This document shows, in pieces, positions 612 through 8,780 of a stretch of DNA of 40,441 nucleotides (the stretch's first letter is position 1; the number at the start of each line of letters is the position of its first letter). A program made the translations under genes and the position numbers. The stretch covers positions 1-40,441 of the forward strand of contig CAZYIP010000003.1 of the NCBI GenBank assembly GCA_964646895.1, in the 5' to 3' direction. The notes below the pieces were generated by a model, which worked only from the letters and a program-made list of their open reading frames with translations, searched no databases and was not told where the DNA came from. Source of the stretch: an uncultured Salinisphaerales bacterium (lineage in GTDB: Bacteria; Pseudomonadota; Gammaproteobacteria; Nevskiales; CAZYIP01).

Positions 612-1460
612 TCATGCAATGGCCGAGGCGACCCGCCTACGCACCCACGCCGACAGGAGTTCGGACGCAATCACTACTACGATTATTGAAAGAAGTATTG
701 CAGCCACTTGATGCAATTCCACTTTCTGCATGCTCTCTCGCAGGTACCAACCCATACCACCTGCACCGAAGAAGCCGACTACCGTTGCGGCCCGAAAAAC
801 CACGTCCCATGTGTATATTGAGATCCCCGTCCAGCTCACGCGCACCTGCGGTAATACGGCGTAGACGAACACTGGTAATTCCCCGGCACCGGTCGCGCGA
901 ATCGCATCGATCGGTCCACGCTCTATTTTCTCGACAGCCTCCGAAAACAGCTTACCGGTAAATCCGATGCAGAACAGAGTCAGTGCCACGACACCGGGAA
1001 GAAATCCGAACCCCAAAATCGCGACCAGCAGGATGGTCCAGATCATCTCGTGCACTGAACGACATCCCATGATGGCGAGCCGGGCAAAAGGATATCCGAG
1101 ACGCTTACTCGGAGTCATGTTGAATGCCGCAAACCAGGCAAGCGGCACCGAGATCAGAATACCGAATACTGACGCGAGATAGGACATCTGCAGTGTTTCC
1201 AGGACTGAATGCAGATATTCGGGACGCAAAACATGCTCTACGTCAGGGGGATAATAGCGCTCGGCAAGTACGGCGCCAAGGCGGCCCAGGATGCCGGGTA
1301 TGCGCTCGACATTGATGTTCAGTGCTTCTAGCGCGTAGCCGATAAACATCAGCATCCCGAGGATGGCAGCATATTTGTACAAGCTCTGGGGATAACGAAA
1401 ACGGCGCCATTCAGGCGGTGACCCCTGTCCCGCTTCGCGGCCCGCAGCCTGGTCCGGCAT
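612..1460 (-). CDS. phnE: phosphonate ABC transporter permease
   Basis: Hydrophobic ABC permease with PhnE-type motifs (RSVHEMIW, EAA-like loop GPIDAIRATGA, GAGGMG). Start placed at MPDQ, which has a GGAGA RBS. Confidence 0.9.
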   Translation of the reverse strand: MPDQAAGREAGQGSPPEWRRFRYPQSLYKYAAILGMLMFIGYALEALNINVERIPGILGRLGAVLAERYYPPDVEHVLRPEYLHSVLETLQMSYLASVFGILISVPLAWFAAFNMTPSKRLGYPFARLAIMGCRSVHEMIWTILLVAILGFGFLPGVVALTLFCIGFTGKLFSEAVEKIERGPIDAIRATGAGELPVFVYAVLPQVRVSWTGISIYTWDVVFRAATVVGFFGAGGMGWYLRESMQKVELHQVAAILLSIIVVVIASELLSAWVRRRVASAIA

Positions 1461-1494
1461 CGCGATTTCTCCGGGGTCCGGCGAAGCTGTATAT

Positions 1495-2310
1495 TTAAAT
1501 GACGGCTTTGCGCACATAGCGGGAGACCACTTCACCAATCAGGATGAGGACGAGCACAACCAGCACCACGGCGGTAATACCACCATAGTTGTAGAGTGCC
1601 ATTTGTCTGAACAAAGCAAACCCCAGGCCGCCCGCCCCCACCAGGCCCATAATGGTCGAGCGACGGATATTGATATCCCATTCAAAGATTGCATTGCCCA
1701 AAAATACTGGGATAACCTGGGGCACCACCGCAAACAGCAGAATCTGGAACTTGTTGGCGCCAACTGCGCGCATCGCGTCTACCGGCCCTGAATCGATATC
1801 CTCGATCGCCTCGGCAACCGTCTTCGACACGAAGCCGACTGAGCGCACGGCCATTGCCAATATACCGGCTAACGCTCCCAGACCCACTGCAGACACGAAT
1901 ATGAGCGCCCATACAATTTCATGTATCGAGCGCGAGAACGTCATCAGCAGCCTACCCAAGGGGTAAGAGATGATGGGCAATGGGGTAACATTCAACGCGC
2001 CCAGCCACGCTACGGGAATCGCCAACACCAACCCTAACAGAGTCGCCAGAGTTGCCATCAGCAAGGTCTCCCAGGCTGGCTTGATCAACTCCGGAATGAT
2101 GCTGAGATCGACTTTCAGGAATTCGAACAGGGTCTTGCCGACTGACCCACTTGCCAGCCGAGCCCAATCGGTACCCGCGATTACGAGGACATCGACACTC
2201 CAGCCAACGACCGCGAAAATGGCTAAATAGAGACCATAGCGGAGAGCTCGGCTATGCCAGCGTCGCGAGGAAATCTGCGCAATCTTCGCATCCAGCATCG
2301 CAGCAGTCAT
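1495..2310 (-). CDS. phnE: phosphonate ABC transporter permease (second copy)
   Basis: RSIHEIVWAL, GPVDAMRAVGA and WDINIRRSTIMGLVGAGGLG motifs; start overlaps the phnC stop. Confidence 0.92.
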   Translation of the reverse strand: MTAAMLDAKIAQISSRRWHSRALRYGLYLAIFAVVGWSVDVLVIAGTDWARLASGSVGKTLFEFLKVDLSIIPELIKPAWETLLMATLATLLGLVLAIPVAWLGALNVTPLPIISYPLGRLLMTFSRSIHEIVWALIFVSAVGLGALAGILAMAVRSVGFVSKTVAEAIEDIDSGPVDAMRAVGANKFQILLFAVVPQVIPVFLGNAIFEWDINIRRSTIMGLVGAGGLGFALFRQMALYNYGGITAVVLVVLVLILIGEVVSRYVRKAVI

Positions 2311-3056
2311 AAAACCTCCATCGCATAGATTCCTTCGAGAGTGCCTTCGTCCAGCTCGCTCGGTACGCCTTCGAACTTCTTGACACCATCCTGGAGACCG
2401 ATGACACGTGTACAGAATGCCGTGGCCAGGTCAACGTCATGAATGTTGCAAAGTACCGGGATGTGGAACTCCCGAGCTATCTCAGTAATGAGTATCATCA
2501 CTTCACGCGCAATTTTCGGATCGAGACTCGAAGTCGGCTCATCCACCAAAAGCAGTTTGGGATTTTGGATGAGCGCCCGGGCGATACCAACACGCTGACG
2601 CTGGCCTCCGCTTAGCTGGTCGGCTCGCTTGTCGACATGCTCTGATAAGCCGACGCGATCCAAAAGCGTAAGCGCCTGTCTGATATCGCTTTTCGTGAAT
2701 GCACGAAACAGACTACGCACAATGCCCGTGTAGCCAAGTCTTCCAGTCAATACGTTGTCGATTACAGAAAGACGCTCGATCAGGTTGAATTCCTGAAAAA
2801 TCATCCCGATGTGCCGACGCGTTTCGCGCAATGCAGACTGATTCATTGCGACAATATCTTTGCCAAGAAAGGCAATCTTTCCGTTGTTCGGCTCCACTAA
2901 CCTGTTGATGCAACGGATGAGCGTCGATTTACCCGCACCACTCGGCCCGATGATCGCAAAGAAGTCATCGGCAGTGACCGTAAAGCTGATATCTTTCAGT
3001 ATCTGCCGACCAGAGTACCCTGCGCTCAGGTCACGAACCTCCAGAACCGATTGCAT
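2307..3056 (-). CDS. phnC: phosphonate ABC transporter ATP-binding protein
   Basis: Walker A GPSGAGKS, IFQEFNLIERL, LSGGQRQRVGIARAL, DEPTSSLDP; GGAGG RBS before MQSV. Confidence 0.93.
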   Translation of the reverse strand: MQSVLEVRDLSAGYSGRQILKDISFTVTADDFFAIIGPSGAGKSTLIRCINRLVEPNNGKIAFLGKDIVAMNQSALRETRRHIGMIFQEFNLIERLSVIDNVLTGRLGYTGIVRSLFRAFTKSDIRQALTLLDRVGLSEHVDKRADQLSGGQRQRVGIARALIQNPKLLLVDEPTSSLDPKIAREVMILITEIAREFHIPVLCNIHDVDLATAFCTRVIGLQDGVKKFEGVPSELDEGTLEGIYAMEVL

Positions 3057-3115
3057 GCTGCTCCTCCCAAGGTGCGCGGCCCGTGGCATTACCGAGCCAC
3101 GGGCCGTCCCTCCCG

Positions 3116-6793: not shown

Positions 6794-6818
6794 TGCCAGC
6801 CCTTCCTCAGTGTCGCAT

Positions 6819-8048
6819 TCAGTGGGTGTGATTGAGCGCAAGATCGAACGCATCGAAATTGCGTAAACGCCTTGAGGTGGCGGCAGTATCAATCTGCCGA
6901 TTGATCAGCAACGGCACCTCCTGCTCCGACAATCCACCGTGCGAGCGCAACGGCACGGTCAGTCCGGACAAATCGTGGCGCGAGGCGCTGGTGCCTATGA
7001 CCGTGTCCTGTCGGCTGATCGCGACCACATCCCCCAGACGATCCGATGGCAATTCGAAACGCTCGCTCGCCTCGGCACGATCGACCACAAGTTCCATGCC
7101 GGGTAACGCAGCAATGCGTTTCATCAGTTCGGGCAAGCGTTCGCGGGCGCTGTCGGCGAAGTAAACCGTAGCGAAGGATCCCAGGGCCCCGTGGTGCACG
7201 ACATACGGATCGGTGATGGGCAAAATCACCCGCGCGACGTCCTTGCCTGCCTCCGCGTCCAGCATGTCCTGCAGATAGATGATGTTTGCGTGCCCGTCCT
7301 CGTCGTGCTTGGCGTGCATGCCGTGATCGGCGGTGAACACGATGGTCGCGCCTTGCGCGTCGAGCTGCGACAGGTAGCCATCCATCATGCGATAGAAGGC
7401 ATTCGCTTCCGGTGTGCCCGGGGCGGCCTTGTGCTGAACATAATCGGTGGTAGACAGGTACATGAGATCTGGCCGATCGCGCTGCATCAGCTTCACGCCG
7501 GCGGCAAACACGAACTCGGACAGCTCGGCGCTGTACACCGAAGGCACCTGCATGCCGACGAGTTCCAGCACATTGTCGATGCCATTGGTGGCGATGCTCG
7601 CCTCATCCGCCTTCTCGGCGGAGAAGCAGATACCCTTCAGCTTGTGGCCCAGCAGCCGCCGCAATTTATCCTTGGCGGTCACCACGACCACGCTGGCGCC
7701 GCGATCCGCAAACGCTGCGAGCAGGCTGTCGGCGCGCAGATACTTCGGGTCGTTCATCATCACTTCCTCGCCGCGGTCACGGTCAAAGAAGTAGTTGCCG
7801 CAAATCCCGTGCACGGCCGGAGGCCTTCCGGTGACGATCGACAAATTGTTCGGATTGGTGAAGCTCGGCATGACGCAATCGCCGGTCAGCGCAGTGCCAT
7901 CCCTGAGCATTCTGCTGAGAAATGGCGCGATACCGGCTTCAGTCGCTTCCGTGAGGTATTCGTACTGGCAGCCGTCACAGCACACGACGACCACCGGGTT
8001 ATCCGGCCACTGATATGTTCTTTCGTTAACCGTGACAGCCTGTTTCAT
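6819..8048 (-). CDS. phnA: phosphonoacetate hydrolase
   Basis: Alkaline-phosphatase superfamily: [17 protein letters not shown] (Thr nucleophile), [34 protein letters not shown]. Confidence 0.95.
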
Positions 8049-8078
8049 GGAGTCCTCTTCGCGTGGGTTGGCGGCAAT

Positions 8079-8780
8079 CTAGTCAGCAGTGGCAATGCCA
8101 TATGCCTTGTGCATGCGCTGGCGGCTCGCTGTGGCGTGCTCGCGCATCACACGCCCGGCCGCATCCGCATCGCCGCTGGCAATGACATTAACGATGGAAC
8201 GGTGCTCCTCGTTGGAAACAGGCAAGCCGCCGCCCTCGATCAGTCCGTGGCGCCGGAACAGGTGCAGTTCCTTGATCAGACGCCGATAGGTCGCGATCAG
8301 CTTGCTGTTGCCGGTGAACTCGACCAGCAGGTCGTGGAAGCGCACATTGAGCGGGTGGTAGCGATCCACATCGCCCTGCGCGTTGGCCTCGTCCATCTCG
8401 TCGAGCAGCACATGCAACTGGTCCAGTTGCTCCGGCGTGATCAGCAGCGCCAGTTTGCGGCCAACAAGCTCGTCCAGCGCCTCGCGCAGGTCGTAGATTT
8501 CGTCGGCTTCCTCGACGGAAATCTTGCGCACGAATACGCCGCGGTTTTTTCTCGTGTACACCAGGCCGGCCTCTTCCAGGGTGCGAAAAGCCTCCCGGAT
8601 CGGGCCGCGGCTGGTATTGAACTTGAGTGCAAGTTCGCTCTCGTTGAGGCGCTCTCCGGGTCCGATCGCGCCTTGCAGAATCAGGCGCTCGATCTCCTCC
8701 TGTACGAGCATGGAGAGAGAACCCGTCTGCACCAATTGGAGTGGCGTCAAGCCTTCGGTATTCGTATTCATGCCAGACAT
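8079..8780 (-). CDS. phosphonate-utilization-associated GntR/FCD transcriptional regulator
   Basis: N-terminal wHTH (GERLNESELA...SRGPIREA) plus FCD domain (NVRFH, EEH); first gene of the phn operon. Start 8780 or 8771. Confidence 0.88.
   Translation of the reverse strand: MSGMNTNTEGLTPLQLVQTGSLSMLVQEEIERLILQGAIGPGERLNESELALKFNTSRGPIREAFRTLEEAGLVYTRKNRGVFVRKISVEEADEIYDLREALDELVGRKLALLITPEQLDQLHVLLDEMDEANAQGDVDRYHPLNVRFHDLLVEFTGNSKLIATYRRLIKELHLFRRHGLIEGGGLPVSNEEHRSIVNVIASGDADAAGRVMREHATASRQRMHKAYGIATAD

What the first reader, a model, noticed from the sequence alone, without database searches (positions are those of the whole stretch)
612..8780. phnA-phnY operon without phnW but with an Fe-alcohol dehydrogenase: candidate 2-hydroxyethylphosphonate catabolic pathway
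Seen: regulator-phnA-phnY-FeADH-phnD-phnC-phnE-phnE in one direction, with no 2-aminoethylphosphonate transaminase anywhere in the window. Established: PhnY oxidises phosphonoacetaldehyde to phosphonoacetate and PhnA hydrolyses that to acetate + Pi; PhnW normally supplies the aldehyde; Fe-ADHs such as PhpC/FomC interconvert phosphonoacetaldehyde and 2-hydroxyethylphosphonate (HEP) in biosynthesis. Inference: here the ADH works in the oxidative direction, giving HEP -> aldehyde -> phosphonoacetate -> acetate + Pi without a C-P lyase. A PhnCDE-type importer rather than an AEP-type importer fits a non-amino substrate.
Basis: partly seen in the sequence, partly recalled or inferred. Interest (0 to 1): 0.78.

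Follow-up and report, generated by a model that had tools for sequence, protein, structure and literature searches.

The report
Hydroxyethylphosphonate breakdown operon, already described

Summary
Window 612-8858 (minus strand) carries phnR, phnA, phnY, a PhpC-type ADH, phnD, phnC and two phnE. Seven of the eight score above curated NCBIfam cut-offs. PhnD passes only the subfamily model.

Piazza et al. (Protein Sci 2026, PMC13576164) showed that the Paraburkholderia fungorum enzyme oxidises HEP to phosphonoacetaldehyde with NAD+. They describe phpC + phnY-phnA clusters without phnW as HEP-dedicated. The window ADH is 64% identical to a P. fungorum orthologue and keeps the metal and HEP-binding residues they name.

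- **No other route found.** The 97%-complete genome has no phnW, phnX, phnJ or PEP mutase above cut-off.
- **Probably acquired sideways.** The cluster is low in GC, groups with Burkholderiales sequences, and sits in a gammaproteobacterium whose sampled order-mates lack phnA (0 of 150).
- **The PhnD clade tracks HEP dehydrogenases.** In 35 of 36 loci with enough flank it lies beside a PhpC-type or a PbfG-like dehydrogenase, never both. That supports HEP as the imported substrate.

An earlier agent of this scan reached the same verdict on another genome (e1-3149592).

Verdict: a new member of a known kind, of low interest.

The parts
8079..8858 (-). phnR: GntR/FCD-family regulator of the cluster. 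The start is uncertain (ATG 8858, 8780 or 8771).
   Evidence: TIGR03338 phnR_burk 315 bits, cut-off 271.5. Pfam GntR + FCD. Candidate starts.
6819..8048 (-). phnA: phosphonoacetate hydrolase, which cleaves the C-P bond to give acetate + Pi.
   Evidence: TIGR02335 584.5 bits, cut-off 407.55. Shine-Dalgarno-like GAGGA before ATG 8048.
5324..6793 (-). phnY: phosphonoacetaldehyde dehydrogenase. The ORF is open up to TTG 6892, but the likely start is ATG 6793.
   Evidence: TIGR03250 852 bits, cut-off 635.65, match from residue 52 of the long ORF. GAGGAAGGG before ATG 6793.
4164..5276 (-). PhpC-type (PF00465) alcohol dehydrogenase: HEP dehydrogenase, HEP + NAD+ -> phosphonoacetaldehyde.
   Evidence: TIGR03405 505.6 bits, cut-off 423.7. 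Single copy in the genome. 63.6% identical to a P. fungorum orthologue, with metal and HEP-binding residues kept. Sister to the Allopusillimonas soli gene (SH-aLRT 99).
3116..4048 (-). phnD-like periplasmic binding protein of a clade linked to HEP dehydrogenases. Cap residues are T57/H224(R225)/D252.
   Evidence: PF12974. TIGR01098 208.8 bits (cut-off 112); TIGR03431 218.3 bits, below its 261.1 cut-off. Alignment to 3P7I. Clade conservation and context.
2307..3089 (-). phnC: ABC ATPase. The likely start is ATG 3056.
   Evidence: TIGR02315 312.2 bits, cut-off 266.1. Start.
1495..2310 (-). phnE (first permease).
   Evidence: TIGR01097 251.9 bits, cut-off 216.7.
612..1538 (-). phnE (second permease). 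The likely start is ATG 1460.
   Evidence: TIGR01097 237.1 bits, cut-off 216.7. Start.
8880..10523 (+). Na/Pi-cotransporter-II-related protein, divergent from phnR. It is a possible accessory of the cluster; a role in Pi handling is inferred only.
   Evidence: TIGR00704 225.9 bits, cut-off 210.1. Homologues lie within 10 kb in 10 of 80 ADH loci and 25 of 80 PhnD loci. Its GC3 of 0.82 matches the host.
8798..8820 (.). Inverted repeat TGATTGTCAAC-A-GTTGACTACCA between phnR and the Na/Pi gene. It is a candidate operator and is speculative.
   Evidence: Its exact core was found in 0 of the 179 loci fetched up to that point, so there is no comparative support.

Best explanation
This is a substrate-induced operon for using 2-hydroxyethylphosphonate (HEP).

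1. PhnDC(E)2 imports HEP.
2. The PhpC-type metal-dependent ADH oxidises it with NAD+ to phosphonoacetaldehyde. That reaction's equilibrium favours HEP.
3. PhnY pulls the reaction forward by oxidising the aldehyde to phosphonoacetate.
4. PhnA hydrolyses the C-P bond to give acetate and phosphate.
5. The GntR-type PhnR presumably controls expression.

Shown here: gene identities, order, conservation and genome-wide gene content. Shown in print for a P. fungorum enzyme; a P. fungorum orthologue compared here is 64% identical to the window's: the ADH step. Inferred: the ligand of PhnD, the regulation, and that the operon was acquired by horizontal transfer from Burkholderiales as two modules (phnR-A-Y and ADH-phnDCEE).
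For: **Gene identities.** Seven of the eight genes exceed curated equivalog cut-offs; PhnD passes the subfamily model only.

**Published biochemistry.** Piazza et al. 2026 (PMC13576164) found that P. fungorum PhpC oxidises HEP with NAD+ (kcat 0.36 s-1, KM 1.36 mM) and prefers Zn2+. Among the seven compounds tested it reacted appreciably only with HEP. They read phpC + phnY-phnA clusters lacking phnW and pbfD as HEP-dedicated.

**Active-site conservation.** The window ADH is 63.6% identical over 363 aligned residues to the P. fungorum strain orthologue in L026. It keeps Asp, three His, Lys, Thr, Tyr and Arg at the positions that correspond to the paper's D191, H195, H260, H274, K157, T256, Y264 and R349.

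**No other source or sink for the aldehyde.** The genome is 97% complete. Best scores against cut-offs:
- PhnW: 73.9 bits (400.8) and 130.9 bits (360.8). tblastn with three true PhnW proteins gives at most 37% identity over short stretches.
- PhnX: 45.9 bits (220).
- PhnJ: no hit.
- PEP mutase: 123.9 bits (319.55). So the ADH is neither biosynthetic nor fed by AEP.

**Synteny.** 55 of 80 ADH loci carry PhnA and PhnY within 10 kb, and PhnW appears in 4 of 80.

**Transporter.**
- All 80 PhnD relatives (53-78% identity) keep H224-R225-D252, and T57 is seen in 79 (the 80th row does not cover it). E. coli PhnD has T14/E177/D205 at the cap positions.
- 45 of the 80 lie beside a PhpC-type ADH, 18 beside a PbfG-like Zn-ADH, 0 beside both and 17 beside neither.
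- Among the 36 loci with at least 4 kb to the left and 6 kb to the right of PhnD, 35 have one or the other.

**Horizontal transfer.**
- The 5 kb from phnE2 to the ADH is 54.1% GC against 63.5% for the genome, and only 0.7% of the 550 genome 5-kb windows fall below 55% GC.
- GC3 is 0.57-0.66 for ADH-phnDCEE, 0.72-0.76 for phnRAY and 0.79-0.82 for the neighbouring genes.
- PhnA is found in 0 of 150 sampled order-mates, and the ADH above cut-off in 1 of 150.
- The ADH is sister to that of Allopusillimonas soli, inside a Burkholderiales set.
- The host's RecA is closest (81-84%) to non-Burkholderiales gammaproteobacteria.
Against: - No experiment exists on this locus. 64% identity does not guarantee the same substrate.
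- The characterised PhpC is a poor HEP oxidiser (kcat/KM 270 M-1 s-1) and a much better aldehyde reductase (68,000 M-1 s-1).
- NCBI names the family PsrA after a B. cenocepacia homologue tied to lipid-peroxidation stress (PMC9113575).
- PhnW lies within 10 kb in 12 of the 80 PhnD-clade loci, so related clusters may also take AEP.
- The cap His-Arg of PhnD could equally suit the carboxylate of phosphonoacetate.
- The mapping of the paper's residue numbers onto my sequences assumes a +4 offset, and Arg349 fits only at +5. The accession of the assayed protein (WP_074772540) was not among the 15 members listed for the 90% cluster.
- The genome is a 306-contig draft, so absence of a gene is not proof.
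- PbfD-type amine oxidases were not searched for genome-wide.
Confidence: 0.8

Rival explanations
1. The operon mainly serves to use exogenous phosphonoacetate: PhnDCEE imports it and PhnA cleaves it. On this reading PhnY and the ADH are accessory feeders.
For: PhnA alone suffices for phosphonoacetate. The PhnD cap carries His224-Arg225, which could bind a carboxylate. Several truncated loci show PhnD with PhnA and no dehydrogenase in view.
Against: The PhnD clade tracks an HEP dehydrogenase of either class in 35 of 36 loci with enough flank. That includes 15 loci with neither PhnA nor PhnY within 10 kb. In A. soli the ADH heads the phnDCEE transcription unit, apart from phnRAY. PhnY and the ADH would be idle in a genome with no other source of phosphonoacetaldehyde.
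Confidence: 0.08
2. It is an ordinary AEP pathway (PhnW-PhnY-PhnA) whose transaminase lies elsewhere. The ADH then acts reductively, as a side valve that turns phosphonoacetaldehyde into HEP, as Lockwood et al. 2022 suggested for phpC in AEP operons.
For: Lockwood et al. (PMC9381506, passages seen) proposed that phnW + phpC convert AEP to HEP. PhpC is kinetically better as a reductase. The genome is a draft of 306 contigs. Two other aminotransferases lie in the window.
Against: No PhnW above cut-off exists in the 97%-complete genome. The window's aminotransferases score far below the PhnW and PbfA cut-offs (83.5 against 360.8; 304 against 525). The PhnD cap lacks the Glu that binds the amine of 2AEP. 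PhnW is absent from 76 of 80 ADH loci.
Confidence: 0.05
3. The true substrate is a different hydroxyalkylphosphonate, for example a hydroxypropyl- or dihydroxyethyl-phosphonate or an HEP ester fragment. It would follow the same alcohol -> aldehyde -> acid -> hydrolysis logic.
For: Only seven compounds were tried on the P. fungorum enzyme. The window ADH is 36% diverged from the P. fungorum orthologue compared here. PhnD is far from every solved binding protein (best PtxB, 109 bits).
Against: PhnY and PhnA match equivalog models for the C2 compounds by wide margins. All predicted HEP-contacting residues are conserved.
Confidence: 0.05
4. The ADH is a PsrA/YqhD-like aldehyde reductase that detoxifies lipid-peroxidation aldehydes, and its place in the phn cluster is incidental.
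For: NCBIfam labels TIGR03405 'PsrA'. A B. cenocepacia psrA mutant shows more lipid peroxidation (PMC9113575). 20 of 80 ADH loci show neither PhnA nor PhnY nearby.
Against: Here the gene sits inside the operon, 47 nt after phnY and 115 nt before phnD. No enzymatic activity of PsrA was measured. Piazza et al. found the psrA gene unlinked to known phosphonate-metabolism genes, whereas 55 of 80 close relatives of this ADH are linked to PhnA and PhnY.
Confidence: 0.02

Closest known systems
Degradative phpC + phnY-phnA clusters for HEP (Piazza et al., Protein Sci 2026, PMC13576164); the PhpC of Paraburkholderia fungorum was assayed
   Same: The same three enzymes and the same absence of phnW and pbfD from the cluster. 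The ADH belongs to the same family (PF00465, TIGR03405). It is 64% identical to a P. fungorum orthologue, with the named metal and HEP-binding residues conserved.
   Different: The host is a non-Burkholderiales gammaproteobacterium with no separate AEP cluster, whereas P. fungorum has one (two PhnW above cut-off). All genes run in one direction with a PhnDCEE importer. The locus looks horizontally acquired. Whether the paper's Table S1 lists such clusters or their transporters could not be checked, because supplements are closed.
PhnW-PhnY-PhnA pathway for 2-aminoethylphosphonate
   Same: The PhnY and PhnA steps and their equivalog-level sequence matches.
   Different: The entry enzyme is a dehydrogenase acting on an alcohol, not the transaminase PhnW, which is absent from the genome.
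Biosynthetic phosphonoacetaldehyde reductases PhpC/FomC/DhpG/AglG (EC 1.1.1.309)
   Same: The same fold and the same reversible reaction.
   Different: There is no PEP mutase in the genome, and the context is degradative, so the enzyme is read in the oxidative direction.
PbfG (PF00107 Zn-dependent HEP dehydrogenase; Piazza et al. 2026)
   Same: The same role. PbfG-like genes take the ADH's place beside the same PhnD clade in 18 of 80 loci.
   Different: It is an unrelated fold and is not present in this window. The best tblastn hit in the window's own genome is 29% identical.
E. coli PhnD (PDB 3P7I), the 2AEP-binding protein of the C-P lyase operon
   Same: The same family (PF12974). The phosphonate-binding Ser-Thr-Ser and His are conserved, as are cap residues Thr and Asp.
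   Different: The score falls below the TIGR03431 cut-off (218 against 261). Glu177 is replaced by His224, followed by Arg225. The protein is linked to HEP dehydrogenases, and this genome has no PhnJ (C-P lyase) gene.

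Membership tests
Degradative PhpC-type HEP dehydrogenase (TIGR03405 / PF00465) | Scores above the curated family cut-off | tested here: met
   505.6 bits against 423.7. PF00465 + PF25137.
Degradative PhpC-type HEP dehydrogenase (TIGR03405 / PF00465) | Metal ligands Asp191, His195, His260, His274 (numbering of Piazza et al.) | tested here: met
   The alignment to P. fungorum L026 shows the window's D201, H205, H270 and H284 identical. 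The numbering is mapped with an inferred +4 offset.
Degradative PhpC-type HEP dehydrogenase (TIGR03405 / PF00465) | HEP-contacting Lys157, Thr256, Tyr264 and Arg349. The Tyr is strictly conserved in PhpC and is Phe in sulfoacetaldehyde reductases. | tested here: met
   The window's K167, T266, Y274 and R360 are conserved in the alignment. Arg349 maps one residue off the offset used for the others.
Degradative PhpC-type HEP dehydrogenase (TIGR03405 / PF00465) | NAD+-dependent oxidation of HEP to phosphonoacetaldehyde | not testable with these tools
   Shown only for the P. fungorum enzyme.
HEP-dedicated catabolic cluster (Piazza et al. 2026) | An HEP dehydrogenase clustered with phnX or phnY-phnA | tested here: met
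   phnA, phnY and the ADH are adjacent on one strand.
HEP-dedicated catabolic cluster (Piazza et al. 2026) | No phnW or pbfD in the cluster, and no pepM/aepY (not biosynthetic) | tested here: met
   None of the eight genes is an aminotransferase or an FAD oxidase. The genome has no PhnW or PEP mutase above cut-off. PbfD was not searched for genome-wide.
Phosphonoacetate hydrolase PhnA (TIGR02335) | Equivalog score | tested here: met
   584.5 bits against 407.55.
Phosphonoacetaldehyde dehydrogenase PhnY (TIGR03250) | Equivalog score | tested here: met
   852 bits against 635.65.
C-P-lyase-linked, 2AEP-binding PhnD (TIGR03431; E. coli type) | Equivalog score | tested here: not met
   218.3 bits against 261.1. 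It is a member only of the broader subfamily TIGR01098.
C-P-lyase-linked, 2AEP-binding PhnD (TIGR03431; E. coli type) | D/T/E cap (D205, T14, E177) that binds the amino group of 2AEP (PMC5700983) | tested here: not met
   T57 and D252 are present, but E177 is replaced by H224. His224 is in all 80 relatives. Two Collimonas PhnD in the same alignments show T/E/D.
AEP catabolic pathway (PhnW-dependent) | Presence of the 2AEP-pyruvate transaminase PhnW | tested here: not met
   Best scores are 73.9 bits against 400.8 and 130.9 against 360.8. The genome is 97% complete.

The most novel reading that the evidence does not exclude
The window's PhnD belongs to a distinct clade with a conserved T/H-R/D cap, and that clade is the dedicated HEP-binding protein. 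Together with an HEP dehydrogenase it forms a portable 'take up and oxidise HEP' module. The dehydrogenase slot has been filled by two unrelated enzymes (PhpC-type or PbfG-like). The module plugs into whatever phosphonoacetaldehyde-cleaving genes a genome has. Here it was added next to a separately acquired phnR-A-Y unit, giving a gammaproteobacterium with no PhnW/PhnX or C-P lyase route an HEP pathway. A TmpA-like candidate elsewhere on the contig was only partly followed up. The main text of Piazza et al. says nothing on transporter specificity ('PhnD' occurs 0 times). Their supplements were not visible.
Probability: 0.55. Interest if true: 0.4.

Novelty: new member of a known kind. Interest (0 to 1): 0.22.

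Why it matters
HEP is thought to be an abundant natural phosphonate, for example esterified in marine polysaccharides (as described in the papers read). Knowing which microbes can mineralise it without C-P lyase bears on phosphorus cycling.

The pathway itself is now in print, so this locus mainly adds another example. It does offer three modest points:
- An organism in which HEP looks like the only substrate of the hydrolytic PhnY-PhnA route.
- Signs that the cluster moves between proteobacterial lineages as modules.
- A sequence-defined PhnD clade that would be a good candidate for an HEP-specific binding protein. If confirmed, it would be useful as a genomic marker or a biosensor scaffold.

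Tried and rejected
- **Promoter and terminator scan** of 1-10800: 3 promoter-like and 8 terminator-like sites, against 5.6 and 9.5 expected from shuffles. It says nothing on operon boundaries.
- **E. coli-type Pho box** with up to 3 mismatches: one match in the window, outside the cluster, against 2.5 expected. So there is no evidence for Pho control, and the consensus may not apply to this lineage anyway.
- **Candidate PhnR operator** (inverted repeat 8798-8820): its exact core was found in 0 of the 179 loci fetched up to that point. It stays speculative.
- **Confirming that the L026 protein is the assayed one:** the 90% cluster has 55 members, of which 15 were listed. All the full-length ones are P. 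fungorum or P. nemoris proteins, but accession WP_074772540 was not among them.
- **Family-level searches** returned only the window's own genome, because it is the sole species of its family. I moved to the order level instead.
- **PhnX in the alphaproteobacterial ADH-phnDCEE loci:** it is adjacent only in L246, with fragments in L205. In L243, L250 and L256 the flanking genes checked are housekeeping genes, a phn-type LysR regulator, or have no family match.
- **First PhnW query set:** it contained a spurious antisense ORF from L095. This was corrected.
- **Scan notes on this genome:** none exist.
- **Not done:** structure prediction, complex prediction and read mapping. None of them would change the verdict.

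Full report
**What is there.** ORF listing with Pfam and NCBIfam scans confirms eight consecutive minus-strand genes between 612 and 8858:
- a GntR/FCD regulator (TIGR03338 phnR_burk, 315 bits, cut-off 271.5);
- phosphonoacetate hydrolase PhnA (TIGR02335, 584.5 / 407.55);
- phosphonoacetaldehyde dehydrogenase PhnY (TIGR03250, 852 / 635.65);
- an iron-type alcohol dehydrogenase (TIGR03405 'Phn_Fe-ADH / PsrA', 505.6 / 423.7);
- a PhnD-like binding protein (TIGR03431, 218.3, below its 261.1 cut-off; subfamily TIGR01098, 208.8 / 112.05);
- PhnC (312.2 / 266.1);
- two PhnE (251.9 and 237.1 / 216.7).

With the Shine-Dalgarno-backed starts (PhnY 6793, PhnC 3056, PhnE2 1460), the genes are separated by -4 to 115 nt. 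The consensus scan reported terminator-like sites only inside genes, none between them, and found no more sites than shuffles give. Only the right-hand coordinate needs moving, from 8780 to 8858.

[quoted passage not shown] I read its introduction, results and discussion. The paper reports the following:
- Non-biosynthetic phpC homologues usually cluster with phnX or phnY-phnA and lack phnW and pbfD.
- Recombinant PhpC of Paraburkholderia fungorum oxidises HEP with NAD+ (kcat 0.36 s-1, KM 1.36 mM). With PhnX added, phosphate is released.
- The enzyme prefers Zn2+.
- Of seven compounds tried, it reacts appreciably only with HEP.

TIGR03405's older source names, such as 'phosphonate metabolism-associated iron-containing alcohol dehydrogenase', show that the genomic association was noticed earlier still. 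An earlier agent of this scan reached the same verdict for a related cluster in another genome (e1-3149592).

**How close is this ADH to the assayed one?** The search for related loci returned 80 loci. The best is Allopusillimonas soli at 72% identity, and a P. fungorum strain (L026) is at 64%. A global alignment gives 231 identities over 363 aligned positions.

The paper names metal ligands D191, H195, H260 and H274, and HEP contacts K157, T256, Y264 and R349. On the L026 ORF these residue types fall at +4 (Arg at +5). In the window protein all are identical (D201, H205, H270, H284, K167, T266, Y274, R360). The offset is my inference. The assayed accession was not among the 15 members listed for the 90% cluster.

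**Is there another source or sink for phosphonoacetaldehyde?** The window is a whole contig of a 3.54-Mb, 306-contig, 97%-complete genome. Whole-genome HMM searches gave these results:
- No PhnW: best 73.9 bits against 400.8, and 130.9 against 360.8. The second hit is a BhcA-like class-V enzyme on another contig.
- No PhnX: 45.9 bits against 220.
- No PhnJ.
- No PEP mutase: 123.9 bits against 319.55.

tblastn with three genuine PhnW proteins gave nothing above 37% identity over short stretches.

There are caveats. The genome is a draft. PbfD-type oxidases were not searched for. The window also holds a class-III aminotransferase (13152-14588; PbfA model 304 bits against 525) and a weakly PhnW-like class-V one (30788-32005; 83.5 against 360.8).

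**Comparative context of the ADH.** Of the 80 ADH loci:
- 55 carry PhnA and PhnY (at least 55% identity) within 10 kb;
- 5 more carry one of the two;
- 20 carry neither, and some of those are short contigs;
- PhnW appears in 4, three of them at locus edges.

In a quick maximum-likelihood tree the window ADH is sister to the A. soli gene (SH-aLRT 99), within a set that is otherwise Burkholderiales.

**The transporter.** As worded this is weak, because E. coli PhnD binds 2AEP at nanomolar affinity through a D205/T14/E177 cap (PMC5700983).

The HMMER alignment to 3P7I puts the window's T57, H224 and D252 at those three positions. The Glu that accepts the ammonium group has become His, followed by Arg225. 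The cap differs between groups:
- Comamonadaceae ADH clusters use a second PhnD type, with S/R/S in 27 of 27.
- Two Collimonas PhnD in the same alignment show the E. coli-like T/E/D, which serves as an internal check on the alignment.

A scan with the window PhnD gave 80 loci at 53-78% identity. All keep H224-R225-D252, and 79 show T57; the 80th row does not cover that position. Their contexts:
- 45 lie beside a PhpC-type ADH.
- 18 lie beside a medium-chain Zn-dehydrogenase whose best model is TIGR03366, 'putative phosphonate catabolism associated alcohol dehydrogenase' (279-289 bits, cut-off 328), with threonine dehydrogenase next. That matches the description of PbfG.
- 0 lie beside both.
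- 17 lie beside neither, and 16 of those are truncated loci.
- Among the 36 loci with at least 4 kb on the left and 6 kb on the right of PhnD, 35 have one or the other. The exception is the most distant one, L258.

Fifteen loci with the ADH show neither PhnA nor PhnY within 10 kb. The three I inspected (L243, L250, L256) are alphaproteobacterial (Kiloniellales, Hyphomicrobiaceae, Odyssella). In them the genes flanking ADH-phnDCEE are housekeeping genes, a phn-type LysR regulator, or have no family match. PhnX lies directly downstream in L246.

Two unrelated dehydrogenases beside the same binding-protein clade is good comparative evidence that the clade imports their shared substrate, HEP. PhnW within 10 kb in 12 of the 80 loci tempers this.

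**Origin.**
- The genome is 63.5% GC. The 5 kb from phnE2 to the ADH is 54.1%, and only 0.7% of the 550 genome 5-kb windows fall below 55%.
- GC3 rises stepwise: 0.57-0.66 for ADH-phnDCEE, 0.72-0.76 for phnR-A-Y and 0.79-0.82 for the flanking genes.
- Identities to A. soli are 69-78% for ADH-phnDCEE but 50-70% for phnRAY. The best PhnY matches (77-79%) are Variovorax, Comamonas and Cupriavidus.
- In A. soli the two units are divergently transcribed.
- The genome is the only species of its family.
- Among 150 sampled order-mates, PhnA occurs in 0 and the ADH above cut-off in 1.
- RecA is closest (81-84%) to uncultured gammaproteobacteria and Salinisphaera, and only 77-78% to Burkholderiales.

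I read this as horizontal acquisition from Burkholderiales-like donors, probably as two modules. That reading is an inference.

**Mechanism and rivals.** The best-supported mechanism has these steps: HEP is imported by PhnDC(E)2; the ADH oxidises it with NAD+; PhnY pulls that reaction forward, because the ADH equilibrium favours HEP; and PhnA hydrolyses the product.

Control by the GntR-type PhnR is an inference. No E. coli-type Pho box was found in the cluster.

The rivals are these:
- phosphonoacetate as the main substrate;
- a hidden AEP route with a reductive ADH (the Lockwood et al. 2022 reading);
- another hydroxyalkylphosphonate as the substrate;
- a PsrA-type aldehyde reductase (PMC9113575).

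Each is weighed in its own section. Together I give them about 0.2.

**Verdict.** The kind is now established, so this is a new member of a known kind and of low interest. The one element I could not find in the main text of the paper is the HEP-linked PhnD clade and the modular, transferable ADH + importer unit.

Noticed in passing
window 23262-27115: A minus-strand trio faces a divergent LysR regulator. The trio is a TauD/GBBH-type dioxygenase, an HD-domain protein and a choline-type binding protein. The dioxygenase's best model is 2-trimethylaminoethylphosphonate dioxygenase TmpA (337.6 bits, cut-off 400), ahead of gamma-butyrobetaine dioxygenase at 246. The HD protein scores 24.8 bits on Pfam HD and 38 bits on TIGR03276, phosphonate HD oxygenase (cut-off 214.6). 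The binding protein scores 327 on TIGR03414 (cut-off 379). This may be a TmpA/TmpB-like oxidative route for a quaternary-ammonium phosphonate or a relative, and so a second phosphonate pathway on the same contig. The TmpAB chemistry is recalled; no paper was retrieved.
   Followed up: partly
window 8880-10523 (+); L012, L017, L023, L024, L037, L040, L063, L067, L071, L087 and 25 PhnD loci: A Na/Pi-cotransporter-II-related gene lies divergently next to phnR. Homologues (32-47% identity) recur inside or beside HEP clusters in 10 of 80 ADH loci and 25 of 80 PhnD loci. It might handle the phosphate released when HEP serves as a carbon source, but that is speculation. Here its GC3 is host-like.
   Followed up: partly
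L222 8100-9197, L226 8665-9849, L230 8750-9847 and 15 further loci: A PbfG-like Zn-dependent dehydrogenase (TIGR03366, 279-289 bits, just under the 328 cut-off) sits between phnA and the same PhnD clade in Rubrivivax, Ideonella and Rhizobacter-type MAGs. There it replaces the PhpC-type ADH.
   Followed up: yes
L243, L250, L256 (alphaproteobacterial MAGs): ADH-phnDCEE appears as a free-standing five-gene unit. The flanking genes I checked are ilvBHC and other housekeeping genes, a phn-type LysR regulator, or have no family match. No C-P-cleaving gene lies within 10 kb, although PhnX is present elsewhere in some of these genomes.
   Followed up: partly
window 13152-16186: A class-III aminotransferase is followed by a YbfB-type MFS transporter, about 4 kb from the phn cluster. 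The aminotransferase is diaminobutyrate-transaminase-like (449 bits against 671) and scores 304 against 525 on the PbfA model. There is no evidence that it acts on aminophosphonates.
   Followed up: partly
window 1-611 and contig C306 (L181): The first 55 bases of the window are identical to the last 55 of a 1.5-kb contig that encodes an MFS transporter in the same orientation. This looks like an assembly-graph junction just downstream of phnE2. No family match was found in window 1-611.
   Followed up: partly
genomes behind L012 (Allopusillimonas soli) and L050 (Variovorax gossypii): Like the window's genome, these two carriers of the ADH cluster show no PhnW hit at E <= 1e-40. P. fungorum has two PhnW above cut-off, plus a third hit below it.
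   Followed up: no
L183, L184, L187, L188, L190, L191, L221, L234: In several of the closest Burkholderiales clusters of the phnR-phnDCEE-phnA-ADH-phnY type, a PhnW gene (61-65% identical to reference PhnW) lies 5-6 kb upstream on the other strand. Some relatives may therefore feed both AEP and HEP into the same PhnY-PhnA pair.
   Followed up: no
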